A stretch of 64,000 nucleotides of DNA from Rhizodiscina lignyota (Eukaryota): positions 372,001 through 436,000 of the forward strand of contig ML978138.1 of the NCBI GenBank assembly GCA_010015805.1, written 5' to 3'. Shown one piece after another: positions 32,325 to 55,800 of the stretch (positions within the stretch are counted from its first letter, which is position 1; the number at the start of each line of letters is the position of its first letter). A program made the translations under genes and the position numbers. The notes below the pieces were generated by a model, which saw only the letters and a program-made list of their open reading frames with translations, did not search any database and was not told where the DNA came from.

Positions 32325-35300
32325 ATGCCTTCTTCAGACGACACCACGAGTGCCGTCGCCACCATTCTCTCCACCCTCGCCAAACAGCACGATCCCAACG
32401 CTGACGAGTCTTTCAATGGCGCTGCGGCCACGAACGGTCTGAAGGCGGCCAAGATAACACTGCCAGGTCCGGATAATGTCGCAAAGCAGAATCTGGAGAA
32501 GGAGTTGCATGCACTTGCAGCCCGCATACAATTCCTCGAGGCGCGAGCAGCAGTCAATAGCGATGCCTTCCCTATTACTCCCAACGAGCCTGGTGTAGTG
32601 ACACCATTTCCCGTCGACTCGCCTGATTCCCACCGAAATGGATCGTCGCCCGCGCGACATGTGTCCATCGGCAGTCGCGACCAGCGCACATTGTGGGTCA
32701 ACAATTGGCTCACGTCGAAGGAGGCCAGCAACAATGTTCCTGTCACGGAAGAGCAGCTAGGCTATCTCCGCGACCATGTCAATAAGCAGGCGGATCAGAT
32801 TAAGACCCAGCGCGAGCACATTGACGAACTGTCTACTTTTGTCCAACAGCAGCAACAGAAGCAGGAGAATGTGTTCAGTGCCGACGAACAGAACTATGAG
32901 CAGCTGAAACGCGAGCTCGTAAAGAATCAGCAAGCGAATCTTGCCTTCCAAAAGGCCTTACGAGAGATTGGCAGCATCATCACCGCTGTGGCCAATGGAG
33001 ACCTTAGCAAGAAGGTGCTGATCCATGCAAAAGAGCTAGACCCAGAGATTACAAAGTTCAAGCGCACAATCAATAAGATGGTTGATCAACTACAAGAATT
33101 TGCACAGCAGGTCACAAGGCTGGCCAAGGAGGTGGGCACAGAAGGCAAGCTTGGTGGACAGGCTGTCGTGCCAGATGTCAGTGGCATCTGGGCCGAATTG
33201 ACGATGAATGGTATGCACGAGATTTTGAGACGTATTGAGGTTGTGACCCCGCTAATTTCATACAGTCAACCTAATGGCAGAGAACCTCACGAACCAAGTC
33301 AGAGAGATTGCAGTTGTTACTACAGCTGTCGCACACGGTGACCTGAGCCGGAAGATCGAACGACCTGCAAGAGGAGAAATTCTCGAGTTGCAACAAACGA
33401 TCAATACTATGGTGGATCAACTCCGCTCCTTTGCAACAGAAGTCACAAGAGTGGCTCGCGATGTCGGTACCGAAGGTGTCTTGGGTGGACAAGCAGAAAT
33501 AGAAGGTGTTCAGGGCATGTGGAATGATCTGACCATCTCTGTGAACGCCATGGCCGAAAACCTCACAACGCAAGTGCGAGACATTGCCCAAGTCACAACT
33601 GCCGTTGCCAAGGGTGATCTGACCCGAAAAGTCAGCGCAGAGTGCAAGGGTGAAATCTACAAGCTTAAATTCACAATCAACAACATGGTGGACCAGCTGC
33701 AGCAGTTCGCGCAGGAAGTCACGAAGATCGCCCGTGAGGTCGGAACGGAAGGTCGACTAGGTGGTCAGGCAACTGTTCACGGCGTCGAAGGCACATGGAA
33801 GGCTCTGACTGAAAATGTCAACGGCATGGCTATGAACTTGACAACCCAAGTGCGCGAGATTGCAGAGGTTACTACTGCCGTGGCGAATGGCGACTTGACG
33901 AAGAAGGTCCAAGCAGAAGTCAAAGGAGAGATTCTGACGCTCAAGAACACTATCAACACTATGGTGGACCGCCTGAATGCGTTCGCCTTCGAAGTGAGCA
34001 AGGTCGCAAGAGAAGTCGGAACAGAAGGAAAGCTTGGCGGTCAGGCTACTGTGGAGAATGTGGATGGGAAATGGAAGAACCTCACAGACAATGTCAACAT
34101 CATGGCACAGAATCTCACCACACAGGTGCGAAGTATATCAAGCGTCACGCAGGCCATTGCGCAGGGTGATATGACGAGGCGTGTTGAGGTACACGCGCAA
34201 GGCGAGATCTTGCTTCTGAAAGATACCATCAACGACATGGTTGCCCGACTAGACGATTGGTCTTTGGCTGTCAAGCGCGTCGCCCGAGAAGTCGGCGTTG
34301 ACGGCAAGATGGGCGGCCAAGCAGAAGTTCAGGGCATTGCCGGCCGTTGGCGCGAAATCACACAAGATGTCAATACCATGGCGCAAAATCTCACGGCCCA
34401 AGTGCGTGCTTTCGGCGACATTACGAATGCAGCAACACAGGGTAATTTCCAGAGCGTGAACGTTGAAGCGGCTGGCGAAATGGATGAGCTGAAGCGAAAG
34501 ATCAACAAGATGGTTAGCAACCTGCGAGAGTCAATCCACCGTAACCAAAGCGCACGACAGGCAGCCGAATTGGCAAACAAGACTAAGAGCGAGTTCTTGG
34601 CTAACATGTCTCACGAAATTCGAACGCCGATGAACGGAATTATTGGCATGACGCAGCTTGCTCTGGATACAGACCTCAGCACGTATCAGAGAGAGATGTT
34701 GACCATTGTGCACAACCTTGCGAATCAACTTCTGACCATCATTGACGATATCCTGGATATCTCCAAGATTGAGGCCAAGCGGATGGTGATGGAGCAAATT
34801 CCATTCTCGCTTCGTGGAACAGTCTTCAACGCGCTCAAATCCTTGACAACACGGGCCAATGAGAGAAGTCTGAACCTGGCGTACGAGGTCGACAGAACCG
34901 TTGCAGATTACATTGTTGGTGACAGCTTCAGGCTACGACAAATCATCCTCAACCTTGTCGGCAATGCTATTAAATTCACAGAGAATGGTGAGGTGAAGGT
35001 GAAGATATGCATGGCAGACTCTGCAGATCTCGTTGAGCCGATTAGCGAGAAGGATGAGGACACTGGTAGCCAGGACTTTGCTGGACAGGATTCGATTGAT
35101 TGGAGAGGCTCTTTTGGACACGATAGCACTGATGAGCCAGGCAGTGGATTCGTTCTTGGCGAGATTGTTGAGGGCGGCGCAGTGGATGCTATGAAGACAG
35201 CTGCAACGAAGCCAGTGAACAGAAGAAGTGTGGGCTTTGGCGAAATGCCTCCGAAACGCACCAGCGTCCCCGGCATTGAAGTCTCAAAACATCTTACCGA

Positions 35301-36910
35301 TGCATTCAGCGGATCTCCCGCATCTTCTATTGGCCAGCACAGCTTCCCTGACCTTGTGAATACAGATCCGGATGAAGAGGAGGACGTCGGGCCGGACACA
35401 TTTGTTATTAAGTTCGCTGTGAGCGACACAGGCATTGGCATTCGCAAGGACAAACTCAACCTCATCTTCGACACCTTCCAGCAGGCCGATGGCAGCACGA
35501 CAAGGCGATTCGGCGGCACGGGCCTGGGTCTGAGCATCTCCAGGAGACTAGTGAATCTCATGGGCGGAAGAATGTGGGTAGAAAGCGAGTATGGCCAAGG
35601 AAGCACATTCTTCTTCACGTGCCGAGTACACTGTGCGAGCCCGGATGTCAAAGCTATTCGCCCACAGTTCAGACCGTACAGACAGCACGAGGTGCTCTTC
35701 ATCGACAAGGGGCGCACCGGTTACGGAGATCAAATCGTTCAGCACATAAGAGAACTCGATCTTGTCCCGCACCATGTCAAGGTTTCTCCCAAGGCCGACA
35801 CACCTCTACCGGACATTCTACGTGCGCCAGATCCGATGTACGGGTGCGTCATTGTGGACTGCGACGGAACCGCCCGGCAGCTGAGGGATCTGGAAAAATT
35901 CAAATACATCCCTCTTGTCATGCTGACGGACCACATCAATGTTTCTTTCCGCTCGGCTCTGGAGGATGGAATAAGCAGCTACATGACGACTCCGTGCCTT
36001 GCCATCGACTTGGGTAATGCCCTTATTCCTGCGCTGGAAGGACGTGCGGCTGCACCCGTCAGCCCTCACAGCAAGAGTTTCAACATTCTATTGGCCGAGG
36101 ACAACGCAGTCAATCAGCGACTGGCGGTCAGGATATTGGAGAAGTATCATCACACGGTCACGGTCGCGAATAACGGTCTTGAGGCCGTTGAAGCGATTAA
36201 GAAGATCAGGTATGATGTCGTGCTCATGGATGTGCAGATGCCTGTGATGGGTGGCTTTGAGGCAACAGCCAAGATCAGAGAATGGGAACGCGAGAACGGC
36301 CTCACGCGCAGTCCTGTTATCGCTCTCACTGCCCATGCCATGGTTGGTGATCGCGAGAAGTGCATCCAGGCACAGATGGATGAGTATCTCTCCAAGCCTC
36401 TCAAGCAGAACCAACTCATTCAAACGATCGTCAAGTGTGCTACGCTTGGCGGCGCTCTTGCGGCCCAGAATGATCAGAGAACCTCACTGGCTAGCTCGCC
36501 GCAGGATGCTGATGGCGAGTCAGCTCCGGCCGAACCGAAAACACCGGTGGAAGAGACGCCAAGAGGCACACCGGCACCGGGCAGTGCAGGCAAAACTCCT
36601 GGCGGCCTGACTCCGAAGCGGCCAAAGATAGAGAACCGCGCGTTTACCGAGAGAAATACCGGAGACGAGAGTCCGAAGCTGATGAGCGTGGATGTGGTGG
36701 ACACTGTTGATAGGGTACGTTTACCTCATTGCTTGTCGCACTGACTTTCGTCGTATCTGTGGAGGACTCTTACATTTACTTGATTCATTGGCGTCCAAAC
36801 TGCGCGCTGGGTTTGGTTTGGTTTATGCATGCAAGTATTGCAGGCATCCTTACTGTCAGAGGCATGCTAACTTTTACCCACAGTTGCTTCTCAGGTCGCA
36901 CAGTAGCTGA
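32325..36910 (+). CDS. NIK1: Group III hybrid histidine kinase (HAMP repeats, HisKA, HATPase, receiver), 3 exons
   Basis: Tandem ~92-aa HAMP repeats ([14 protein letters not shown]), H-box [17 protein letters not shown]1/F/G2 boxes and receiver VLMDVQMP. Introns 33211-33265 and 36715-36883; C-terminus LLLRSHSS. Confidence 0.96.
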
Positions 36911-44969: not shown

Positions 44970-45971
44970 ATGTTCGGTTTTTTCGAACCAACTTTCCATC
45001 CAGACACTGATATCCCAGACCTTGCGGGCAAGGTCTTTCTAGTTACAGGCGGTAATAATATGTACTCATTACAGTATTTTGCGATGAAGTATTCGACTAA
45101 CGCTTCATCAACATCGACAGGAAATGCAGGACTCGGGAAAGAAACTGTCTTGCGACTCGCGAAGCACAATCCGCGCAACATCTTCCTGGCTGCGCGAGAC
45201 AAGATGAAAGCTGACGAAGCTATTCGCGACATAAAGAAAGATGCCCCAAATGCGACCATTACACATCTGTCCCTCGATCTCGCTTCTCTGAAGTCCGTTC
45301 GCGCCGCTGCCGAGACCGTGATATCTACTACGGATCGATTAGACGAGCTCATCAATAACGCTGGGGTGATGGCAGTACCAGCGGCCGTAACGCAAGAGGG
45401 CTACGAGATCCAATTCGGCACGAACCACATCGGCCACTTCCTACTCACGAAGCTACTACTCCCACTACTCCAACGAACAGCCGCGTTGCCAGATTCAGAT
45501 GTGCGAATCGTGAACCTGAGCTCTGGGGGGCATATGCACCCGCCATGGAGCGGTATACTCTTCGACGGTAGCTTAGAAGGCACGATGGAGGCATATAACA
45601 CATTCGTGCGCTACGGACAGTCCAAGCTGGCCAACATCTTGCATGTCCGAGAGCTCGCGAAGCGGTATCCGACCATTAAGGCCATTGCAGTTCATCCCGG
45701 CGGCGTGAACACAAATCTCAGCGTCACCTTTCAGAAGAACCATCCCTGGGTTGGCATACCAGGCGCCTACTTGCAGAGTTTCGTGTTGAAGACGGCGGAG
45801 CAAGGTGCCTTGACGCAGCTATGGGCTGCAACGAGTCCGGATGCCGTGAGCGGAAAGTACTACGTGCCAGTCGCGAGGGAGAATTCGGGTTCTGCATACT
45901 CGCGGAATCCAGAGATGGCAGCGAAGCTGTGGGACTGGACGGAAGAGCAGCTGGCAAAACATGGGTACTGA
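44970..45971 (+). CDS. Short-chain dehydrogenase/reductase (retinol dehydrogenase/WWOX-like), 2 exons
   Basis: TGGNAGLG after removing the 69-bp intron 45052-45120, plus LINNAG, QFGTNHIGHF, YGQSK and VHPGGV. Confidence 0.93.
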   Translation: MFGFFEPTFHPDTDIPDLAGKVFLVTGGNNMYSLQYFAMKYSTNASSTSTGNAGLGKETVLRLAKHNPRNIFLAARDKMKADEAIRDIKKDAPNATITHLSLDLASLKSVRAAAETVISTTDRLDELINNAGVMAVPAAVTQEGYEIQFGTNHIGHFLLTKLLLPLLQRTAALPDSDVRIVNLSSGGHMHPPWSGILFDGSLEGTMEAYNTFVRYGQSKLANILHVRELAKRYPTIKAIAVHPGGVNTNLSVTFQKNHPWVGIPGAYLQSFVLKTAEQGALTQLWAATSPDAVSGKYYVPVARENSGSAYSRNPEMAAKLWDWTEEQLAKHGY

Positions 45972-45975
45972 GCCG

Positions 45976-47469
45976 TCATATGATAACAAACGTCTCTTCT
46001 GGGAATTCGCCTTTCTCGTGCGCATCCATTGCCATCTGCTTTGTTGTGTCGTTCAGGTAGCATGGGCCGATCAGCGTGTACTTAGTATCAGCTGACTCAT
46101 CCGAGCGTAGCATGTGCGGTAGTTCGGCATCGGGAAAGAAACAGCAGATGTCCCCTACTTTCGTCATCCCTGGGCCTAGGCCAATATATCCGTTGCTGCA
46201 CACGAAAAGACGTCTCTTTCGGGCGCAACTCACAGCCCGCAAGGTGAAGTGGGAGTAATCCGCCGGGCTAGGGTGGACTTCGTCTTGGATCTCCGCTGGG
46301 AGACTGTCCTTGTCAAAATCGGAAACTAAGTGCTCGAATTCTTGAATCCATTTTATAAGGCAGGGCTTTACATCGGTAAGTTCGAAGTGGGCGAATTGCG
46401 CTATCATAGTGAGAGCCAGCGATTCCAACAAGTCATCATACACAGACGAGCCAAACTCTTCGCGGTGCAGGCGCCGCAAGGTATCGATGAATGGGTTCTT
46501 GGTCTCCCATCCCGAGCGCTTGTGGGGCTCTCTGACAAAAACGTCGTTTCTTCTGATCGATGCCGACACATGGGACACGGTGCCAAGTTTGAAGCCTTGG
46601 GCATGCAGCTCAGTTCGATCGCGGATTGAAAAGTGGTAGCCTGGTTTTCTTCTGGGAGATTCACGAAACGGAGAATTCGGCTGCAGTTTGGACTGTTGAG
46701 TTTCATTCCATTGCGGACACCAGGACGGGCATTTGCTTTCTGGTGCGTCTCCAGTGCAAACCCCAGCGAAGGAAAGCAGGTTCAGCGTCTGCCGCGTTTG
46801 TAACCATGAGATGGCAAAGTCAAGGTATACATCCTCAATGGATTTGGTGTAGTCAGGATGGATTGTTGTCGCTAGCAGCGGATGCGCGAGAAAAGCATAA
46901 ATGTAGTCTCGTGGGTTTGATGCCTTGTACTTTTGTCTTGCGCAGTCCAGAGCGAATAGAAACGCTTCGGAGTGTCTCATCCATTCTGTCGCCTGGCGAT
47001 GGCTAATGTCGTAAGATCTCCACATGACGCCGGACGTAAGTCTGGGCACATCTCGATACTCGTTCTCAATCCTAAGAGCATATCTCTTATGGCTTCCAAA
47101 GAAATACAGGACCTCCATGAGGTCTCTCCAGTCCAGCCTGTGTTCGCCGTACAAAATAACCGCCTCATCGGCGAGCCCTACTTCCTGGACGGTCCACGCT
47201 CTAGAAAACCACGGCATTCGTGTCATGCGGTCCAGAGCCTCCCAATTCAGCGATGCGAACTCTGATTCGGGGTCGTTGATTTTCAAATTCACCTCCGGTC
47301 CGTACTCGTGAATCAAATGGATCAGCTTCTGGACGGATTCGATCGCCAGGTGGGCATCGCCATGAACGTCCGGTCCGACATGAATGAGCACCCGCACAGC
47401 AGCTTTGTAGATTTCACCCATATGAAATACCTGATGACTGCGCTCTTTAACGTTGATTTGCTCGATGCA
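45976..47469 (-). pseudogene. HET-domain (heterokaryon incompatibility, HET-6-like) gene, 3' half, separated from its 5' half by an insertion
   Basis: Begins CIEQINVKERSHQVFHMGEIY, then PWFSRAWTVQEV, ASNPRDYIYAFL, PSWCPQW, RRLFV..NGYIGLGP..KVGDIC and YTLIGPCY. The frame is open to the stop at 45976. Confidence 0.9.
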
Positions 47470-48549
47470 TATCGCAACGAAACATGAGCGCGGCAACCAA
47501 GTCCATTTCATGTGCCATTACCGCTAGTCCCATTTTAGACGTAAAGAAACATGACTAAGTGCATCGTAATTACCTGACTGCGTCTCCTCTGAACGCGTGA
47601 GATTGTCTAAATCGAAATTCTATTAGCAATAGATACCCCAAAGTTTATTCATTAATTACCGCGAGCTCCCTAACTAACGAATTTATACCTTACTACTATA
47701 TTAGAGTTCTAGAGTCAGCATCGAGTAGCAGATAATTGGCGAAAGTCTACCCATCTACCGGCTCATTCCTAGTTGAAGAGACGTGTTTGGCGACGGGTGT
47801 AGCTGCGTCAATGACGTGAGCTATTTCAGCGTACATAGATTGCGGTTGTTCATGCTTTGAGCTTGCGAATTTGTCACTCATTTCCTAGAAATGACTGATC
47901 TCATTTACCCTCGAAAGGGGCAAGTGCTGGAAGTCTGGTGCCTTTCCTGCTGTAATCCTCATCTTTCCAGCATAGATGTACTCCTCAGTTAGTCAAAACC
48001 CCGACACATTTCTGTAGTAACGATCACGAAACCTTTGGCCGGTTAGGACCTCAAGACAGCAAAATCCGGCAAGGCAAAGTTCAGCTGTCATGAATGCATG
48101 CAGACTTGCATTTGATGACAGCGACTTTCTTCTGAAATGTGGCTATAATAGGGTGAGACTTTTATTTTGGACGAGCCAGTTCCTGCAAGGAATCGAGAAC
48201 ATCGCTGCTTTAGTGGCGAGGTATACTCTATTCTGAGACCATACGGAGCAGTTTCTATTCCAATGGACCCGTAATCTTGTTTCATCTGCTTCTACGACAA
48301 CCCAACCTTGTTTCCATATTCAGCATCCGAGCTCATAGCTTCCCCAGATCACCGCACTCTTTTCATATCCCCAAGGTCTTTGATGGCTGCTTCCCCTCTC
48401 CTCACATCAGTCTTTCGTCAGACGACTCCATAGATATCTGCAGAAGATATTGTGTCTGAGAAAATTGTCATGTTCATCTCGGACTGGCAGCCGTAGCTAT
48501 CTTTAGCGAATGTAGGCGAAGTGGAGAGGAACTCTGAATGCGACTACGG

Positions 48550-48560
48550 TATATAAAGAG
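48550..48560 (+). promoter_or_regulatory. TATA box of the repeat-precursor gene
   Basis: TATATAAAG about 150 bp upstream of the ATG at 48699, followed by an A-rich then pyrimidine-rich leader. Confidence 0.45.
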
Positions 48561-48698
48561 TTGAGACGATGCTAAGGAAACCTTCTCTTCATCGGCTCAT
48601 TCAGAAAAACAAAACTAATACAACCTTTTCGTTATTTTTTTCCATTTTATTCCCTTTTCCCTAGCTCCTAGATTCTAATACTAGTCCAGTCATTCAAG

Positions 48699-49889
48699 AT
48701 GAAGGTTTCCGTGTCAGTTGCGATCCTCGCGTTCTGCGCTGCTCTCGCTGTTGCCACGCCAGTCCCGTCTACTAGCGGCGAGCAAGGATTGACCAAGCGC
48801 GGTTTTGGCTTCGAAAATTTCAACAACGAGCAGGACGGTGGCCGCGGCGATAACTTCAATAACGAGCAGGACGGCGGCCGAGGCGATAATTTCAATAACG
48901 AGCAAGACGGTGGCCGCGGCGACAACTTTAATAACGAGCAAGGACTCCGCAAGCGCAGCAGGGACAACTTCAACAACGAGCAGAGCGGCAGCGGCCGCGG
49001 CGACTTCAACAACGAGCAAGGCGGCAGCGGCGATAACTTTAACAACGAGCAAGAGGGTGGCCGCGGCGATAACTTTAACAACGAGCAAGGAAAACTCCGC
49101 AAGCGCAGTAGGGACAACTTCAACAACGAGCAGAGCGGCAGCGGCCGAGGCGACAACTTCAACAACGAGCAGAGCGGCAGCGGCAGCGGCGACAACTTCA
49201 ATAACGAGCAGAGCGGCAGCGGCAGCGGCGACAGCTTCAACAACGAGCAGAGCGGCAGCGGCAGCGGCGACAACTTCAATAACGAGCAAGGCGGTAGCGG
49301 CGACAACTTCAACAACGAGCAAGACGGTGGCCGCGGCGATAACTTCAACAACGAGCAAGGAAAACTCCGCAAGCGCAGCAGGGACAACTTCAACAACGAG
49401 CAGAGCGGCAGCGGCCGAGGCGACTTCAACAACGAGCAAGGCGGCAGCGGCGATAACTTTAACAACGAGCAAGAGGGTGGCCGCGGCGATAACTTCAATA
49501 ACGAGCAAGGAAAACTTCGCAAGCGCAGCAGGGATAACTTCAACAACGAGCAGAGCGGCAGCGGCCGAGGCGACAACTTCAACAACGAGCAAGGCGGCAG
49601 CGGCGACAACTTCAACAACGAGCAAGAGGGTGGCCGCGGCGATAACTTCAACAACGAGCAAGGGAAACTTCGCAAGCGCAGCGACTTCTGCAGCAACTTT
49701 AACAACGAGCAGATTATGCCGGTCCCCTCTTACGTTTACAAAAAGTTCCCCACCTTCAAGGGCTACTATTTGGTGCACGCCTCTGCCACCGCCACCGCCT
49801 CCGCCTCCTCAATCGCCGACGATTCGTTCAGCAACTTCCAGTCATCGGGAGGAGATGGGCAATCGTTTAGCAACGTACAGATCAACTAA
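48699..49889 (+). CDS. Secreted Kex2-processed repeat protein (KEP-like) with 24 FNNEQ repeats
   Basis: Signal peptide MKVSVSVAILAFCAALAVA, pro-peptide ending LTKR, five (K)LRKR sites separating blocks of 4, 4, 7, 4, 4 and 1 (D)NFNNEQ units with G/S/R/D linkers, and C-terminus GQSFSNVQIN. Variation between repeats is mostly at third codon positions in this frame (AAC/AAT, TTC/TTT, CAG/CAA). Confidence 0.9.
   Translation: MKVSVSVAILAFCAALAVATPVPSTSGEQGLTKRGFGFENFNNEQDGGRGDNFNNEQDGGRGDNFNNEQDGGRGDNFNNEQGLRKRSRDNFNNEQSGSGRGDFNNEQGGSGDNFNNEQEGGRGDNFNNEQGKLRKRSRDNFNNEQSGSGRGDNFNNEQSGSGSGDNFNNEQSGSGSGDSFNNEQSGSGSGDNFNNEQGGSGDNFNNEQDGGRGDNFNNEQGKLRKRSRDNFNNEQSGSGRGDFNNEQGGSGDNFNNEQEGGRGDNFNNEQGKLRKRSRDNFNNEQSGSGRGDNFNNEQGGSGDNFNNEQEGGRGDNFNNEQGKLRKRSDFCSNFNNEQIMPVPSYVYKKFPTFKGYYLVHASATATASASSIADDSFSNFQSSGGDGQSFSNVQIN
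48816..49712 (+). repeat. Coding tandem repeat (33-48-bp units nested in ~150-bp higher-order blocks)
   Basis: The core (G)ACAACTTCAACAACGAGCA recurs 24 times with variants; blocks are delimited by CGCAAGCGCAG. Confidence 0.95.
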
Positions 49890-50684
49890 TTTTGAAGCGC
49901 CTGATTGTCTCGCCTTAGCTGCTGGCGTGAAGGAACTGCAGCACGTGTGGATTTTGGTGAAATCTCTATGTTGTCTTCTTGCTTATGTGGAGCATTTGCG
50001 GTCACCGTTGCATGTCAATTGCCTCATCTTGTTTGACTTTCTCATTGTTTTTATTCTGGGCTTCCGACTTCAGCCACTCATTCTACCCGACCTCAAAAAG
50101 GCTCGCGGAAAGTCGATCTGATCTTTGCGAGTTCTGGCTTTCACGGATAATAAAATTTAAATACCATAATGCTTTCTTGAACATAGACAACGATCTTATT
50201 TGACCAGGGAGAATGTTCGAGTGAACGACTAGGTGTAAGGTCGACTGGTGGACCAAACAGAAAATCTGTTAGAAGACTGAGTTAAGGGTTAGGAAGCTAA
50301 GTGAGGTTTCTTAACGGTAGATCGAGGCCAGATTTTTCGGCTTCCGAGAGGGTACTCTAAGATCGATTTTCGGAAGCTTGTTGGCGCTTAAATTTCGTTT
50401 CTGTCTGAGAATGTATAAATTTACGAGAGTTACTAACGTCAGTAATGGAAATGTATTCATACAACACATTGAGAGTTGCTGAAGCTATGAATCAACAATT
50501 AAGAGTAGCTTCAATGCCTCCATAATGTCCGACCCGAAAGGGACTACCTATCTCAGCGAGCGATAGGAGTTTGACTTAGTCGCCAAGAAGATCAAGAACT
50601 TCAAAAGCACGACAATGACTTCGGAAATTCATCGTGAAATCTCAACGATCTAATTGGACTATCGCTGAAAGCTCAGCATGCTAA

Positions 50685-51152
50685 TTACATTATTACCTCC
50701 TCAAGTGCCTCTTCCAAATCCCTATCAATGATGCTCACGTTGTTGCCATCACCGATCTCGGTGACAGTATTCGTAGTTTTCCCGCTGTTATGGTCGCTGA
50801 TGGAGACGTTGTTTCCATCCCCATCGATATTGACATTGTTGGTGTCGTCGCCGCAGTTGCCATCGCTAATAGATACATTGTTGGCATCGCCCTTGGTACT
50901 GACATTGTTTGTAGTCGAGCCCTTCTTGTTGCCAGAGCAGGTCTGGCCCCCAGTATTTCCATTGTTGACTTGAGTGTTGCTGATTTGGGTGCCACCACTC
51001 CCGTCTCCGCCCTGTTCGTTGTTGAAATTGTCGTTGCCGCTTCCGCCATTGACTTGAACATTTGAGATTTGTTTCCCATGACGCGGGAGTGGGGCGGCGC
51101 CGACGAGGACAATAGCAAAGAAGCTTGCAGTGAGGATGCTAGTGAAACGCAT
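50685..51152 (-). CDS. Small secreted Asn/Gly-rich repeat protein (155 aa), partner of the KEP-like precursor
   Basis: Signal peptide MRFTSILTASFFAIVLVGA. Contains QISNVQVN, DNFNNEQGG, QISNTQVN, three GD(A/G)NNVSI repeats, NNVST, NNVNI, two Cys and an acidic tail. Confidence 0.85.
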   Translation of the reverse strand: MRFTSILTASFFAIVLVGAAPLPRHGKQISNVQVNGGSGNDNFNNEQGGDGSGGTQISNTQVNNGNTGGQTCSGNKKGSTTNNVSTKGDANNVSISDGNCGDDTNNVNIDGDGNNVSISDHNSGKTTNTVTEIGDGNNVSIIDRDLEEALEEVIM

Positions 51153-52143
51153 CTTGATTGTATTAAACAATAATTGTAGAGAAAAACGCCGCAAAAGAGT
51201 GACTTGTGAGATCCGAAATTCCTAGAGATTGCGCCTTTGAAAACTACATAAGAGGGTAATGTTACGCTTTAAATCTCTGGGAGGGGGGAAAATCCTTGTG
51301 CTGCTTACTGCGTGTTGCGGCGGTGTGCCCGTAATGCTAATAAAGCCTTCTTGCGAGTTCCTCAAATAGCCCTAAGCCCAAGGCCTTACGTATGGAAGGT
51401 CTAAGAGAACTCGTAAATTGCTCACCATGTATTACTCAACTTAGATCACCTACCCCGTAAACAGAGATTTGGTAAGGACCCATCTAGTCAGAAAATATTT
51501 ATAGCTATTACGGTGTATGACAGGGCTTGTATTACCGCATCCCGGTAACTGCATTAACTCCGTCAAAACTACGCGCCCTACCCCTCTTGTCTGTAATCGA
51601 CGTCAAAGAGTGTGTCATTTGAGTGCTTTGTTACAAAAGATTCTGAAGGTAAAGATCTACACTAAGAACGCCCGTGGCGAATATACACAGTTCCCGATCG
51701 GGAACACCCGGGCCGGATAAATCTATTTCCGGTCCCGTCATCTGAAATCGTGTTCGTGCACCTTGTTCACAATTCAAAGATATCGAGGAGGTCACGTGAT
51801 GCTGGTCGCACACGCGAATTTTCGAAAGCCTACTCCTCTATAATTAGCGTATATATAAGTATAAAAAGTAGATAGATACGCGTAGAAAGGCTTGACTTGA
51901 AATCAAATAGAGCGCTTTTCTCGAATTCAGTCGTGGGCGATTATCATAGAGTTGTAAAATAGAGCATGACCAAAAATTTGAAGAATTTGATGGGGGTTCG
52001 CAGGCTAATTAGGTAATAACTAGCCTAAAGGAATTGTCCTTAGGTAGGATAACAGCGGCTTTTCGACTTGGTGAAACCCCTTAAGAACCTAAGGTATAAA
52101 CCTCATAGATATGAAGTAAGTCATTATGTTTCGTTGCAAATAT

Positions 52144-52760
52144 ATGCAGATGGCGTCTGCCCACAAATCAAGCGCTTGTGAAGTGCTTCGGATCCGCCGA
52201 AGAGCCACTTCGAGAGTCTTTGTGATTTTTAATTTGCAACCATTGCAGAGGATTTCGACGCTGTCGGAAACGTTCCCCCAAACGTAGGAAATAGCTTGGT
52301 AGTCTGGTCCCGCGCTCGTCCTTTCGATGCGCAGATCGCATTTGATGGGATCGTCTCGTTGGCCTGGATATAGTCGAACAATACGAATGGAGTCCTCATA
52401 TGGAAGCGCCTGATAGACGGATTTCTCCCCACTCGAGAGTGTGGAGAGTGTGGAGAGTGGTTCCCTAGAAGCATGTTCCGCGATGTTCAGCCTTGCCAAT
52501 TGCGGGACATTCTCGCCGCGACCTCCAGTCGTGTCACCATCTTGCTCTCGTCTCGAAAATGTCCCCTTGCTGAACGATAGGAGATGCCCGAAGGCCGAGC
52601 AGACTTTCTGTATCATCAAAATGTCTTTAATATGCAGAATTGAAGACGAGATGCCGTGGGACGTTACACGAGGCTGTATATATTGACTGCCTTGAAAGCT
52701 GCGCCACGAATGGCTTGAGGCTAACCCGTCATAGGATTGCATCCATGTCGCGCCAGGCAT
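52144..52760 (-). pseudogene. HET-domain gene, 5' half
   Basis: YQALPYEDSIRIVRLYPG, YQAISYVWG, ITKTLEVALRRIR and LWADAICI form the canonical HET N-terminal half, which stops at the insertion. Start ATG could be 52760, 52742 or 52616. Confidence 0.9.
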
Positions 52761-52859
52761 CCGGGATATTTAGTATTTCGTAAGGACGCATCTCGGAAGT
52801 GTAAGGTCCCGCAATATAAAGAGTTTGTTATCATTCAGACGATAGAGGAGATATCACAA

Positions 52860-55800
52860 TCATGCGAATCGCACTTCACCAAACATACTGGCCCTCACTT
52901 GCATCAGCGCAACGAGCTCCAGCTCGAACTCCTGCAAGATGACCGCATTCGTCAGGATATGACTCAAGCTCGCCTCTCTCAACGCTTTATCCGTCTTCTT
53001 CTCTTCTGACTTTGCGCCTTCAGTGTCTGCGTCAGGACCCGCCTCCGCTCCTGTCGCAAACTGCTTTTCACCATCAGCCACCTTCTGGTTGTCTTTACTC
53101 CCAAACTGGAATCTCCTCTTCAAAATCTCCGCATCAGCTTCCCTTACAACGTCGTTCAGCAGAGCTCTCGGATCTCTCACAGCCGCGTTCATGCTCTCCC
53201 CTGGTCTAGGGCTCTGCGCCCTCGATCGCGCCTGTGGCGTCGCCGGACTCCTGGATCCAAGCAGCCCATAAGAGCCCAAACCCTGCTGTTGTTGTGGCGT
53301 CGATGACCCTGGACTACCACTCGGTGGAACTTTGCTCTTAGAATTGCTGCGTGGCGTCCTAGGAGGACGTGGAGAATCTCGCGACCCGACACTCGCGTCG
53401 CCGCCGATGCTGCGCTCATAGTCGGCCAGCATGCGCTGTGCGAGATTCAAAGTCTTGCCGACGCCAGGAATAGGCTTGCTGGGGCTTCCACTGCCGCTGA
53501 TACTGCGTTCGTATTCGGCGAAGATGCGGTCTGCAATGCTTCGCTTTCCGTCCTTTGGCGCCGGTGTACCTGCTTGGGACCGTGGAGGAGATGCCTGGGC
53601 AAAGTCTTTTGGTGGGACGGGAGGTGGTGCGTTTGCGATAGCTTCTGATATTGCATCGTACAGACTGAATGCTTGCCGGCGTGCGGTAAGGAGGACGTCA
53701 AAGTCTGGGACTGCAGCGCGCACAGATGAGAGTTCCGCATGAATTGCATGTAGCGCCGCGAGAAGAGACGGGGTATTCCGTCGATACCAATTCGGTCTAC
53801 GACGGGCAAGCTCTAGGGCTGTTATATGGTCCGCCTCCGTTGGTAGAGCCCCATTTGTAGCTGTCATTGATTGAGATAGCGATTGAATCGAAGATTCAAG
53901 GTTGGAATCTGTGTCATGATACACGTATTTCGATGGCTCGACGGATAGCCATCCTTCGAGTAGCAGATGTCCGCATGAGGCGAGTGTGATAACTGTCTCT
54001 GTGAGGCCAAGATTCACCTCGACGTTATTCGTCAAGAAAGTCTCGAGGACCTCCAGTGTATACCGGAACATGCTATCGTCAGGGCTTAGATGATGGGTTG
54101 TAGGTTCTCGCAGACAGATGAGGCTTGAGTCTGCCTGCTTTGGGGCAAATCCAAGCTCGTCCAATTTTAAAATTTGGGCCGAACAAGTGTGCGACTCAAG
54201 GAGTTTGAGCGCATCCTTCAGATGGCTTTCGTAAGCTTCATCAAGGCCAGTGTCTCCGATTGTCTTGGCGAGGTCAAGATATGCGTCCATCTCCGCATTG
54301 AGACTGCCATGTGTTCGATGGATTTCCTTGTTGGAACTGAATGAAACTTTGACGAGCGAACCAATGCCGTACGTGTGGTTCTTGCTGAGTATGATCGAGA
54401 CGAGACGAAAGGCTGCAGTGACAGTCTGCTGGTTGTTTGAACGGAGGCTGCTTAATATCAAGTCGACCAGACTGAACAAAGAGGGGTTCAACTGTTCATC
54501 ATCCTTCGGATTGCTCGCAAGTAGCATAAGTGACCGACGCCGCCGGACGAGCCGAGGGGATGCAGATGATTCTTGAGGAAGTCCATTCATGCCTTCCGGC
54601 ATGGCTAGAAGGTATTGCAGCATCATATGAATTAGTTCCGGATGGTCGAGTGCTTCAAGAATGCGTCGAAGGTACATCAAAACCGCAACAGAGGAGCCAC
54701 CGTCAGCATCAGAGGACTCCAAAAGAGATGGGTATCTACAAATCGTCAGTGAGGGTGAATGCGGGAGGGGGCTAGACATACAGTAACTGCTGCAAGAACA
54801 AGACTTGGAAATGATCCAATAAGGTCTGCCGGACATCAATAGATTTGCAATGCTCCAAAACATCTTGCCAAAAGGTCAAGTATGATAGAAACGTGTCCAT
54901 GTGGGTCTTGAGGTTTGGAGAGAAGAGGCTCTCAGCATCGCCAGCCGGCGGTCCTTCTGCATAGTCCGAGAGCACAAGCACGATCGGCATGTCCTCTTTT
55001 GGATGGACAATTGAGAGTTTTCTGATCCATATTAGCATATTATCTCCATCAGAGTACAGACCTCATACCTGCTGAGCTGGCTATACAGCGCGCCCAACCC
55101 AGTGGCCATCAAAGTCGGGATATCACTCTCAACTAACCACTGCTCCAACTCATCGCTCTTACTTGCGCTCTCAAACACATACAGCAGCCCCGTCCTCGCA
55201 AAGTCCCCGATTCTCCCCCCGTGATGCACGTGGTCAATAAGCTGATAGCACAACGGGAAATCCTCCTTCTGCGTCACTCCCGCAAAGCCCTGCCTCCTCC
55301 TCTCCCTATCCTTCTCTAGAAACTCGCTCTCCGAAATCACATTCCTCTGTCTGAACCACACGGGCAGGATCTCCGGCTGCAACCTAATCTTCGCCGTAAT
55401 GCCAAACAGCAGCTCCACAACCTCGACCTCCGTGTCCTCACCCACGAAGATGCCGCCTCCGCCTCCCGATGAAATCCGATCCACAAACCCCATCAGCGAC
55501 TGCGCAAAGCGCTCGGCCGCGAGAAACTCCTCCTCCTCGCTGTCGATGAGCGCGCCGAAAAAGGCGACCGCCTCGCGAATGACAGACTCATTGTAGCACG
55601 CGCTCGCGATGCGCGCGATCGTGATGTAGATCTGGGCGGAGGCGGCGAAGGAGAGGGAGAGATGCGGGGCTGGAGAACGGGATTCATCGTGGAGGATGGT
55701 GGTGAGGCGTTGGAAGGAGACGCGGATGGACTCGAGGGCCTGGGGGTCGTTGTGGAGGGCTTGGGATTTTTGGACGGTGTGCTGGAGAGCTCTTAGAATT

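What the first reader, a model, noticed from the sequence alone, without database searches (positions are those of the whole stretch)
47465..52148. A 4.67-kb cargo element with DR and asymmetric TIRs has split a HET gene inside its signature motif
Seen: two minus-strand HET fragments 4.7 kb apart end ...LWADAICI (52144) and begin CIEQINVKERSHQV (47469). ATGCA is duplicated at both junctions. A perfect 12-bp inverted repeat (GCAACGAAACAT / ATGTTTCGTTGC) lies 4 and 6 nt inside the two ends. Removing 47470-52148 gives TGG GCA GAC GCC ATC TGC ATC GAG CAA, in frame. Known: HET domains carry WxDAICIxQ...ER..QV..M..IY; classical DDE transposons have TIRs directly abutting the target duplication, whereas fungal tyrosine-recombinase Starships have short direct repeats and asymmetric TIRs but are far larger and carry a captain gene. 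Inference: this is a small non-autonomous gene-carrying mobile element ('mini-Starship'-like or a new class) mobilised in trans.
Basis: partly seen in the sequence, partly recalled or inferred. Interest (0 to 1): 0.93.

Follow-up and report, generated by a model that had tools for sequence, protein, structure and literature searches.

The report
Small gene-carrying transposon splits HET gene
A 4.7-kb piece of mobile DNA with matching inverted ends, carrying two genes for secreted repeat proteins but no enzyme of its own, has recently landed inside a fungal cell-death (HET) gene and cut it in two.

Summary
ATGCA stands at 47465-47469 and 52144-52148. GCAACGAAACAT and its reverse complement lie just inside both junctions. 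The two minus-strand HET pieces are Pfam HET profile positions 1-55 and 56-146 and abut exactly where five homologues read LWADAICINQ.

The "offset, asymmetric" TIRs are an alignment effect. With a one-base indel the repeat runs to the tips: ATAT-C-GCAACGAAACAT against ATAT-TT-GCAACGAAACAT. The duplication is therefore 4-5 bp, or 6 bp with one mismatch.

The insert (about 47470-52143) holds no transposase, tyrosine recombinase, LTR, tRNA or Rfam RNA. It carries two convergent orphan genes for secreted proteins that share a DNFNNEQ motif. One is Kex2-type repeat-protein-like.

Contigs re-assembled from one public run span both junctions at flat depth, so the element is single-copy and not a scaffolding artefact. 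The host by a 100 % protein match is Rhizodiscina lignyota. No second genome, empty site or second copy could be reached.

Best reading: a recent insertion of a non-autonomous class II TIR transposon with gene cargo, of the ToxhAT/ToxTA kind but from another family. The superfamily is unresolved. Nothing supports the Starship link. Interest is moderate.

The parts
45976..47469 (-). Downstream (C-terminal) fragment of the split HET-domain gene, 497 codons plus stop. The public annotation calls part of it a gene of its own (399 aa, 100 % identical, named hypothetical protein NA57DRAFT_81417, Rhizodiscina lignyota).
   Evidence: Pfam HET profile 56-146 at residues 1-96; 100 % hit P0001; collinear with 5 homologues
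47465..47469 (.). Left copy of the duplicated target ATGCA. The boundary is ambiguous by 1 nt: the duplication may be ATGC, ATGCA or TGCA, or 6 nt with one mismatch (GATGCA against TATGCA).
47469..47485 (+). Left terminal inverted repeat ATATCGCAACGAAACAT (perfect 12-nt core at 47474-47485)
47486..48698 (.). Left non-coding arm, 43.7 % GC (measured over 47470-48695). It includes a TATATAAA box at 48550-48557, about 140 nt upstream of the cargo-1 ATG.
   Evidence: no Pfam family in its ORFs
48699..49889 (+). Cargo gene 1: a 396-aa secreted repeat protein. It has an N-terminal hydrophobic signal-like segment, 24 xFxNEQ units (mostly DNFNNEQ) and 6 KR dibasic sites, and is Kex2-processed-repeat-protein-like. 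The tandem array lies at 48812-49663.
   Evidence: minor variants at 23 third-codon positions against 3 at first or second positions among the 24 units; no homologue
50685..51149 (-). Cargo gene 2: a 154-aa secreted protein with one DNFNNEQ unit and NNVSISD-type repeats. It is convergent with cargo 1.
   Evidence: the motif is shared with cargo 1 (inverted DNA repeats I1-I18); no homologue among 1.84 billion representatives or
51152..52125 (.). Right non-coding arm, 42 % GC, with RIP-like dinucleotide indices. Positions 51852-51927 and 52028-52062 have a diverged second copy elsewhere in the genome.
52126..52143 (-). Right terminal inverted repeat; read inward it is ATATTTGCAACGAAACAT
52144..52148 (.). 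Right copy of the duplicated target ATGCA
52149..52769 (-). Upstream (N-terminal) fragment of the split HET gene, an open frame of 207 codons. Its reading runs on for 19 codons into the element before a stop at 52089-52091.
   Evidence: Pfam HET profile 1-55 at residues 157-207

Best explanation
This is a single-copy, non-autonomous class II (cut-and-paste, TIR-bounded) DNA transposon of about 4,675 bp. A transposase encoded elsewhere in the Rhizodiscina lignyota genome inserted it, recently, into the coding sequence of a HET-domain gene. Shown: the host gene was continuous before the event; the insert is bounded by a 4-5-bp direct duplication of the target and by 17/18-nt imperfect inverted repeats that reach its tips; it has no recognisable mobility gene; it carries two complete, related genes for orphan secreted repeat proteins; it is single-copy and both junctions are real in reads. 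Inferred: a DDE-type transposase binds the GCAACGAAACAT core, makes a staggered 4-5-nt cut in the target, and gap repair gives the duplication. Also inferred: the HET allele is now null, because the N-terminal product ends 19 codons into the element. Also inferred: the event is young, because both HET fragments are still free of stops. The superfamily cannot be named without the autonomous partner. The TA../..TA or ATAT..ATAT tips and the short duplication fit IS3EU/GingerRoot-like or short-TSD hAT lineages better than Tc1/mariner, CACTA-type, Ginger, Mutator or Harbinger.
For: One domain split at adjacent profile positions 55/56, with an exact abutment against 5 of 5 homologues. A 705-codon open frame after in-silico removal. 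The 12-nt perfect inverted core was matched by 0 of 40,000 same-spacing controls and occurs only twice in the window. The gapped TIR alignment reaches the ends. No LTR-type terminal direct repeats. 0 of 65 internal ORFs of 30 aa or more pass a Pfam cut-off; the best E-value is 0.038. No tRNA and no Rfam hit. Logan contigs of run X1 bridge the left junction (record 1, 45200-48866, 0 differences) and the right junction (record 7, 51615-54400, 0 differences), at depth 154, 160 and 152.5 across flank, element and flank. In a simulation the median was 17 substitutions (0.8 %) to the first stop in the 2,112 nt of HET fragments and the 95th percentile was 69, so the open frames argue for a recent event. 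Precedent: ToxhAT/ToxTA is a single-copy, 14-kb, non-autonomous TIR transposon that carries a secreted-protein gene in Dothideomycetes (PMC12506042, abstract and passages).
Against: No second copy, no autonomous relative and no empty-site allele was seen, so mobility rests on the anatomy of one insertion. Apart from one short diverged fragment (51852-52062), no listed contig piece of X1 matched the element at 80 % or more (8 of 24 laid pieces were listed). The TIR is short and imperfect, with no subterminal repeats beyond chance. The combination of termini and duplication length matches no superfamily's published signature cleanly. A pattern scan of metagenome contigs gave only single chance matches. 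The element sits in a gene-dense core region without any other transposon.
Confidence: 0.6

Rival explanations
1. The element is of the same kind, but is a Tc1/mariner-pogo type with a TA duplication. It would span 47472-52142, and the ATGCA repeat would be part of a pre-existing palindrome TGCATATGCA in the target.
For: TA lies at both candidate junctions (47470-47471 and 52143-52144). Tc1/mariner is the class to which the closest analogue ToxTA was reassigned (PMC12506042). The reconstructed site would still be in frame (inferred).
Against: The empty site would then encode WADAICICIEQ, two residues more than all 5 aligned homologues, which read WADA[IT]CI[NH]Q without a gap. It also breaks the exact 55/56 profile adjacency. 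The TIR tips align worse (TCGCAACG against TATTTGCAACG).
Confidence: 0.07
2. The element is a captain-less derivative of a tyrosine-recombinase element (Starship- or Crypton-like), mobilised in trans. The ATGCA would then be the crossover core rather than a staggered-cut duplication.
For: Starships have short direct repeats and occasionally TIRs, and they carry cargo (PMC11162782, passages). Sanctuary has a 6-bp repeat (10.1101/2024.03.04.583430, passage). The element is single-copy, as Starships often are.
Against: No DUF3435 or any recombinase relic is found in the element or in the window. Its 4.67 kb compares with 15,020 bp for the smallest surveyed Starship. Described mini-Starships keep the captain. 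My searches for captain-less forms found none. The target is ordinary coding DNA of about 51 % GC, and no 5S rDNA or other Rfam family was found at 47000-52600; the 5S rDNA and AT-rich targets reported for Starships are not what is seen here.
Confidence: 0.07
3. This is not a transposon. A stretch of genomic or foreign DNA was captured at a staggered double-strand break during end joining. Fill-in gave the 5-nt duplication, and the inverted repeat is a coincidence or a property of the donor.
For: No other copy and no mobility gene were found. The cargo looks like ordinary fungal genes with their own promoters. There are no subterminal repeats.
Against: A 12-nt perfect inverted repeat placed within 4-6 nt of both ends was never matched in 40,000 controls, and the tips also pair. 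A clean duplication with no deletion of target bases is the signature of transposition.
Confidence: 0.12
4. This is an assembly artefact: two unrelated regions were joined inside a HET gene.
For: The short-read contigs break inside the tandem array at 48866-49634, so no single listed contig spans the whole element.
Against: Independent contigs cross both junctions with 0 differences and equal depth. The duplication plus the TIR geometry is not what a mis-join produces. The run is probably the same isolate, so this rules out a scaffolding error but not strain-specific structure.
Confidence: 0.02

Closest known systems
ToxhAT / ToxTA (Dothideomycete non-autonomous cargo transposon carrying ToxA)
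   Same: A class II element with TIRs, single-copy per genome, with no transposase of its own credited for movement. It carries a gene for a small secreted protein and lives in Dothideomycetes (PMC12506042, abstract and passages).
   Different: ToxTA is 14 kb with 74-bp TIRs and a TA duplication, and its mobility is proven by empty sites. The element here is 4.7 kb with 17/18-nt TIRs and a 4-5-bp duplication, is known from one site only, and carries unrelated orphan cargo.
Starship giant transposons
   Same: Short flanking direct repeats, occasional TIRs, low copy number and gene cargo (PMC11162782).
   Different: The defining DUF3435 captain at the 5' end is absent. The size is 4.7 kb against 15-511 kb. 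The insertion lies in a coding exon.
IS3EU / GingerRoot DNA transposons
   Same: TA..TA termini are possible here under two of the boundary models. The duplication is short. IS3EU occurs in fungi (PMC10045372 and PMC12730594, passages).
   Different: The published signature is a duplication of usually 6 bp and, in rust fungi, TIRs over 30 bp ending TAYGG..CCRTA. Here the duplication is 5 bp (6 only with a mismatch), the TIR is 17/18 nt and the end is TATCG. There is no transposase to test.
hAT elements with short duplications (hAT5/hAT6; hAT-1_Ptr)
   Same: TIR length of 17 nt and a duplication shorter than 8 bp occur in hAT. hAT-1_Ptr of Pyrenophora has 17-bp TIRs and a 6-bp duplication (10.1101/2025.11.13.688278, passage). 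hAT5 has 5 bp (PMC12730594).
   Different: hAT5 and hAT6 are placed among animal lineages in that paper. The usual hAT tip motif (recalled, not from a call) is not present. There is no transposase to test.
Kex2-processed repeat proteins (KEPs); comparison for cargo gene 1 only
   Same: A secretion signal followed by many near-identical units, with dibasic KR sites between blocks (PMC7329392, PMC6339444, PMC9769878; abstracts only).
   Different: KR sites delimit blocks of about 50 aa (four NFNNEQ units each) rather than each short unit. No homologue was found and no processing has been shown.

Membership tests
Class II TIR (cut-and-paste) transposon, non-autonomous | Terminal inverted repeats at the very ends | tested here: met
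   ATAT-C-GCAACGAAACAT against ATAT-TT-GCAACGAAACAT; the 12-nt core was matched by 0 of 40,000 controls
Class II TIR (cut-and-paste) transposon, non-autonomous | Target-site duplication flanking the TIRs, single in the empty site | tested here: met
   ATGCA stands on both sides. The empty site is inferred, not observed: Pfam profile adjacency 55/56 and 5 of 5 homologues gap-free.
Class II TIR (cut-and-paste) transposon, non-autonomous | No transposase inside; a related autonomous element elsewhere | tested here: inconclusive
   Absence inside is shown (0 of 65 ORFs). The partner is not testable because no genome is held.
Class II TIR (cut-and-paste) transposon, non-autonomous | Evidence of mobility: other copies or polymorphic empty site | not testable with these tools
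   One run only, at single-copy depth. The metagenome pattern scan gave chance hits.
Starship | DUF3435 tyrosine-recombinase captain as first gene at the 5' end | tested here: not met
   No Pfam hit in any of the 65 internal ORFs, and none in 36 large ORFs of the window
Starship | Large size (15-511 kb in the starfish survey) | tested here: not met
   About 4,675 bp against PMC11162782
Starship | Short direct repeats, sometimes TIRs | tested here: met
Tc1/mariner-pogo | TA target duplication | tested here: not met
   The TA model predicts a 2-residue insertion that is absent from 5 of 5 homologues
CACTA/EnSpm-Mirage-Chapaev-Transib (CMCT) | 5'-CA..TG-3' termini with 2-5-bp duplication | tested here: not met
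   The tips are (A)TAT.. and ..ATA(T); the signature is from PMC12730594
Ginger1/Ginger2 | TGTNR termini, 40-270-bp TIRs, 4-5-bp duplication | tested here: not met
   The duplication length fits, but the tips and the TIR length do not (PMC2836005)
IS3EU/GingerRoot | TA..TA termini, duplication usually 6 bp | tested here: inconclusive
   TA..TA termini hold only under the TGCA model or the 6-bp-with-mismatch model (PMC10045372)
LTR retrotransposon or solo LTR | Long terminal direct repeats; TG..CA ends outside a 4-6-bp duplication | tested here: not met
   There are no terminal direct repeats. Taking the ends as TG..CA would leave no duplication and a frameshifted HET.
Helitron | No duplication, no TIRs, asymmetric ends | tested here: not met
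   A duplication and TIRs are present
MITE | Small size (under about 0.8 kb, recalled), non-coding, high copy number | tested here: not met
   4.7 kb, two genes, single copy
Spliceosomal intron of the HET gene | GT..AG borders on the coding strand | tested here: not met
   On the minus strand the insert begins ATATTT and ends ..GATA

The most novel reading that the evidence does not exclude
The element is a natural minimal cargo vector of a kind not yet described. One possibility is a captain-less derivative of a tyrosine-recombinase (Starship-type) element moved in trans. The other is the first non-autonomous member of an undescribed fungal TIR superfamily with ATAT tips and a 4-5-bp duplication. 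Either would specialise in ferrying whole genes for secreted peptide precursors into core genes such as HET.
Probability: 0.1. Interest if true: 0.75.

Novelty: new member of a known kind. Interest (0 to 1): 0.4.

Why it matters
Small TIR elements that move intact genes, rather than gene fragments, are rarely documented in fungi. The best-known case, ToxhAT/ToxTA, moves a crop-disease effector. This is a very clean second example of the architecture in a saprobic Dothideomycete: a complete two-gene cassette for orphan secreted repeat proteins, between short TIRs, that has inactivated an allorecognition/cell-death (HET) gene. If the autonomous partner is found, the locus gives exact ends, the target duplication and a selectable empty-site assay, which is restoration of an open HET frame. 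That would allow study of how secreted-protein genes become mobile. As it stands it is one insertion in one genome. It is a tidy annotation result that also corrects a public gene model, which names the C-terminal fragment as a gene. It is not a new class of element.

Tried and rejected
Whole-genome search: no genome is held for this window.

Earlier notes of this scan: nothing was found by place, by sequence (both termini) or by words.

Empty-site allele: only one run holds the stretch. Its contigs show no joint from 47469 to 52149, but contigs drop rare variants, so this says nothing about excision.

Other copies: at 80 % likeness the only listed contig piece from elsewhere in the genome is a fragment at 51852-51927 and 52028-52062 that stops 81 nt short of the right end. 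17 further pieces were not listed.

No flanks resembled the element (best 13 of 25 nt). One locus (L008) had a 1-mismatch inverted partner about 540 nt away, but it had no duplication, no ATAT tip and a coding-looking interior, so I rejected it as chance.

Longer or degenerate TIRs: the best local alignment of the two 600-nt arms scored 15.0 against a shuffle mean of 14.9. Subterminal short repeats did not exceed shuffles.

Transposase relics: none. tRNA and Rfam: none.

Cargo function:
- No Pfam family.
- No homologue by word-indexed search, which did not return the query proteins themselves either.
- None among 1.84 billion representatives for cargo 2.
- Atlas: no usable hit for cargo 2, and only hits below 0.9 for cargo 1.
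- The single-sequence AlphaFold model of cargo 2 had mean pLDDT 50.8, too poor to use.

Supplements of the cited papers were not opened. Repbase-style TIR tables in them might have allowed a better superfamily guess.


Full report
**What is there**

On the + strand the left junction reads ctcgATGCA|tatcGCAACGAAACATgagc (47461-47490). The right junction reads cattATGTTTCGTTGCaaatat|ATGCAgatgg (52122-52153). The 12-mer and its reverse complement are the only two matches in the 64-kb window, even with one mismatch allowed. In 40,000 random pairs of sites with the same spacing, excluding the true one, none carried a perfect inverted repeat of 12 nt or more within 25 nt of both ends.

**The host gene was one gene**

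Two minus-strand open frames flank the insert.
- The frame at 52149-52769 matches Pfam HET at profile positions 1-55.
- The frame at 45976-47469 matches positions 56-146.

In an alignment with five full-length HET proteins from the homologue search (P0002, P0003, P0004, P0006, P0010), the first fragment ends LWADAI and the second starts CIEQ. The homologues read LWADA[IT]CI[NH]Q with no gap or overlap. Removing 47470-52148 in silico gives one open frame of 705 codons.

A 100 % identical public protein of 399 aa covers part of the C-terminal fragment. It is named as a hypothetical protein of Rhizodiscina lignyota. This identifies the organism and shows that the fragment is currently annotated as a gene. 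The next-best homologue is only 31 % identical, so no orthologous empty site exists in the protein collection.

**Boundaries**

A gapped alignment shows that the repeat continues to the tips. Taking the duplication as ATGC, the ends are ATATCGCAACGAAACAT and, read inward from the right, ATATTTGCAACGAAACAT. That is 16 matches, one mismatch and one single-base gap.

The shared bases allow four boundary models:
- ATGC (4 nt);
- ATGCA (5 nt);
- TGCA (4 nt);
- a 6-nt duplication with one mismatch (GATGCA against TATGCA), which would give TA..TA tips.

A TA-duplication model of the Tc1/mariner type is also geometrically possible. It predicts an ancestral WADAICICIEQ, two residues longer than all five homologues, so I disfavour it. 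The repeat does not extend beyond about 18 nt. The best local alignment of the two 600-nt arms equals the shuffle mean. No short subterminal repeats exceed chance. There are no terminal direct repeats of the LTR type.

**Contents**

All 65 stop-to-stop ORFs of 30 aa or more that were scanned (of 69 found inside the element; I left out four short ORFs lying in the tandem array) gave no Pfam family at its curated cut-off. The best E-value was 0.038, and nothing resembled a transposase, integrase or DUF3435 recombinase. There is no tRNA and no Rfam match.

Two convergent genes fill the middle.

Cargo 1 (48699-49889, + strand):
- It encodes 396 aa, with a hydrophobic N-terminal signal-like segment.
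- It has 24 xFxNEQ units in a 13-residue rhythm, 6 KR sites and a TATA box about 140 nt upstream.
- Among the 24 units the minor nucleotide variants fall 23 times on third codon positions and 3 times on first or second positions. This argues for a translated, constrained repeat rather than a mere minisatellite.
- The layout resembles Kex2-processed repeat proteins (abstracts only).

Cargo 2 (50685-51149, - strand):
- It encodes 154 aa, again with a signal-like start.
- It has one DNFNNEQ unit and NNVSISD-type repeats.
- The shared motif shows up as inverted DNA repeats between the two genes.

Neither protein has any detectable relative. A single-sequence fold of cargo 2 was too uncertain to use.

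**Is it real, and how many copies?**

No whole genome is held, and one public run holds 97 % of the sampled words. Its re-assembled contigs cross the left junction (45200-48866) and the right junction (51615-54400) without a single difference. Depth is flat at 154, 160 and 152.5.

The run is probably the sequenced isolate itself. It therefore excludes a scaffolding error and shows a single copy, but it is not independent population evidence. The contigs break inside the tandem array (48866-49634), so the number of repeat units is unverified.

The only listed piece from elsewhere in the genome is a diverged fragment matching 51852-51927 and 52028-52062. It ends 81 nt before the right tip. The right arm also has RIP-like dinucleotide indices (TpA/ApT 1.12; (CpA+TpG)/(ApC+GpT) 0.89), unlike the left arm and the flanks.

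**Age**

Both HET fragments (2,112 nt) are free of stops. In 2,000 simulations of neutral substitution the first stop came after a median of 17 changes (0.8 %), and by 69 changes in 95 % of runs. The insertion is therefore young, unless the fragments are still under selection. This is an inference.

**Context**

The window is a gene-dense core region. It holds a HAMP-repeat histidine kinase, an SNF2/RING helicase, squalene epoxidase, a short-chain dehydrogenase directly beside the HET gene, and other ordinary genes. The 36 large ORFs scanned include no transposase or recombinase.

**Mechanism and classification**

A clean target duplication plus tip-to-tip inverted repeats, with no loss of target bases, is the signature of DDE-type cut-and-paste integration. 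With no enzyme inside, the element must have been moved in trans.

Published signatures exclude several groups:
- Tc1/mariner (TA duplication);
- CACTA-type groups (CA..TG termini; PMC12730594);
- Ginger (TGTNR termini and long TIRs; PMC2836005);
- Helitron and LTR elements.

These leave IS3EU/GingerRoot-like elements (TA..TA termini, duplication usually 6 bp; PMC10045372) or short-duplication hAT lineages as loose candidates. A hAT in Pyrenophora has 17-bp TIRs and a 6-bp duplication (10.1101/2025.11.13.688278). I do not file the element in any superfamily.

The closest described thing in function is ToxhAT/ToxTA. It is a single-copy, non-autonomous TIR element that moves a secreted-protein gene in Dothideomycetes (PMC12506042).

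The Starship idea fails its defining test, because there is no captain, and it fails on size (PMC11162782). 'Mini-Starships' in print still contain the captain. Two literature searches for captain-less or non-autonomous Starships found none. A trans-mobilised derivative is thus not excluded, but nothing here supports it.

**What could not be done**

An empty site, further copies and the autonomous partner could not be sought in fungal genomes with the tools at hand. A metagenome pattern scan returned only chance matches. The verdict therefore rests on the anatomy of one insertion.

Noticed in passing
window 51852-52062: A diverged second copy of this stretch lies on another 862-nt contig of the same run (9 differences in 76 nt, with a 100-nt skip between 51927 and 52028). 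It ends 81 nt inside the right tip. The whole right arm (51152-52143) has RIP-like dinucleotide indices, while the left arm does not. It may be a relic of an older repeat inside the element.
   Followed up: partly
window 48812-49663: The cargo-1 tandem array has units of 39 nt within higher-order units of 150 and 420 nt. It is open in four reading frames, and short-read contigs break inside it, so its unit number in the assembly is unverified.
   Followed up: partly
window 45976-47469: The public annotation names the C-terminal HET fragment as a stand-alone 399-aa hypothetical protein. The two cargo proteins were not returned by either protein collection, so they may be unannotated.
   Followed up: partly
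window 45608-45665: A 57-nt piece inside the short-chain dehydrogenase gene is matched by another contig of the run, with loose ends on both sides. It is probably a conserved paralogue segment.
   Followed up: no
window 47470-47517 and 52089-52148: Both HET fragments read on into the element. The C fragment's frame stays open for 16 codons upstream of the junction. The N fragment gains 19 foreign codons before a stop, so a truncated N-terminal HET product is possible.
   Followed up: no
window 33256-36744: A large HAMP-repeat hybrid histidine kinase (HAMP, HisKA, HATPase_c and Response_reg domains) lies about 10 kb upstream, in a gene-dense region without transposons.
   Followed up: no
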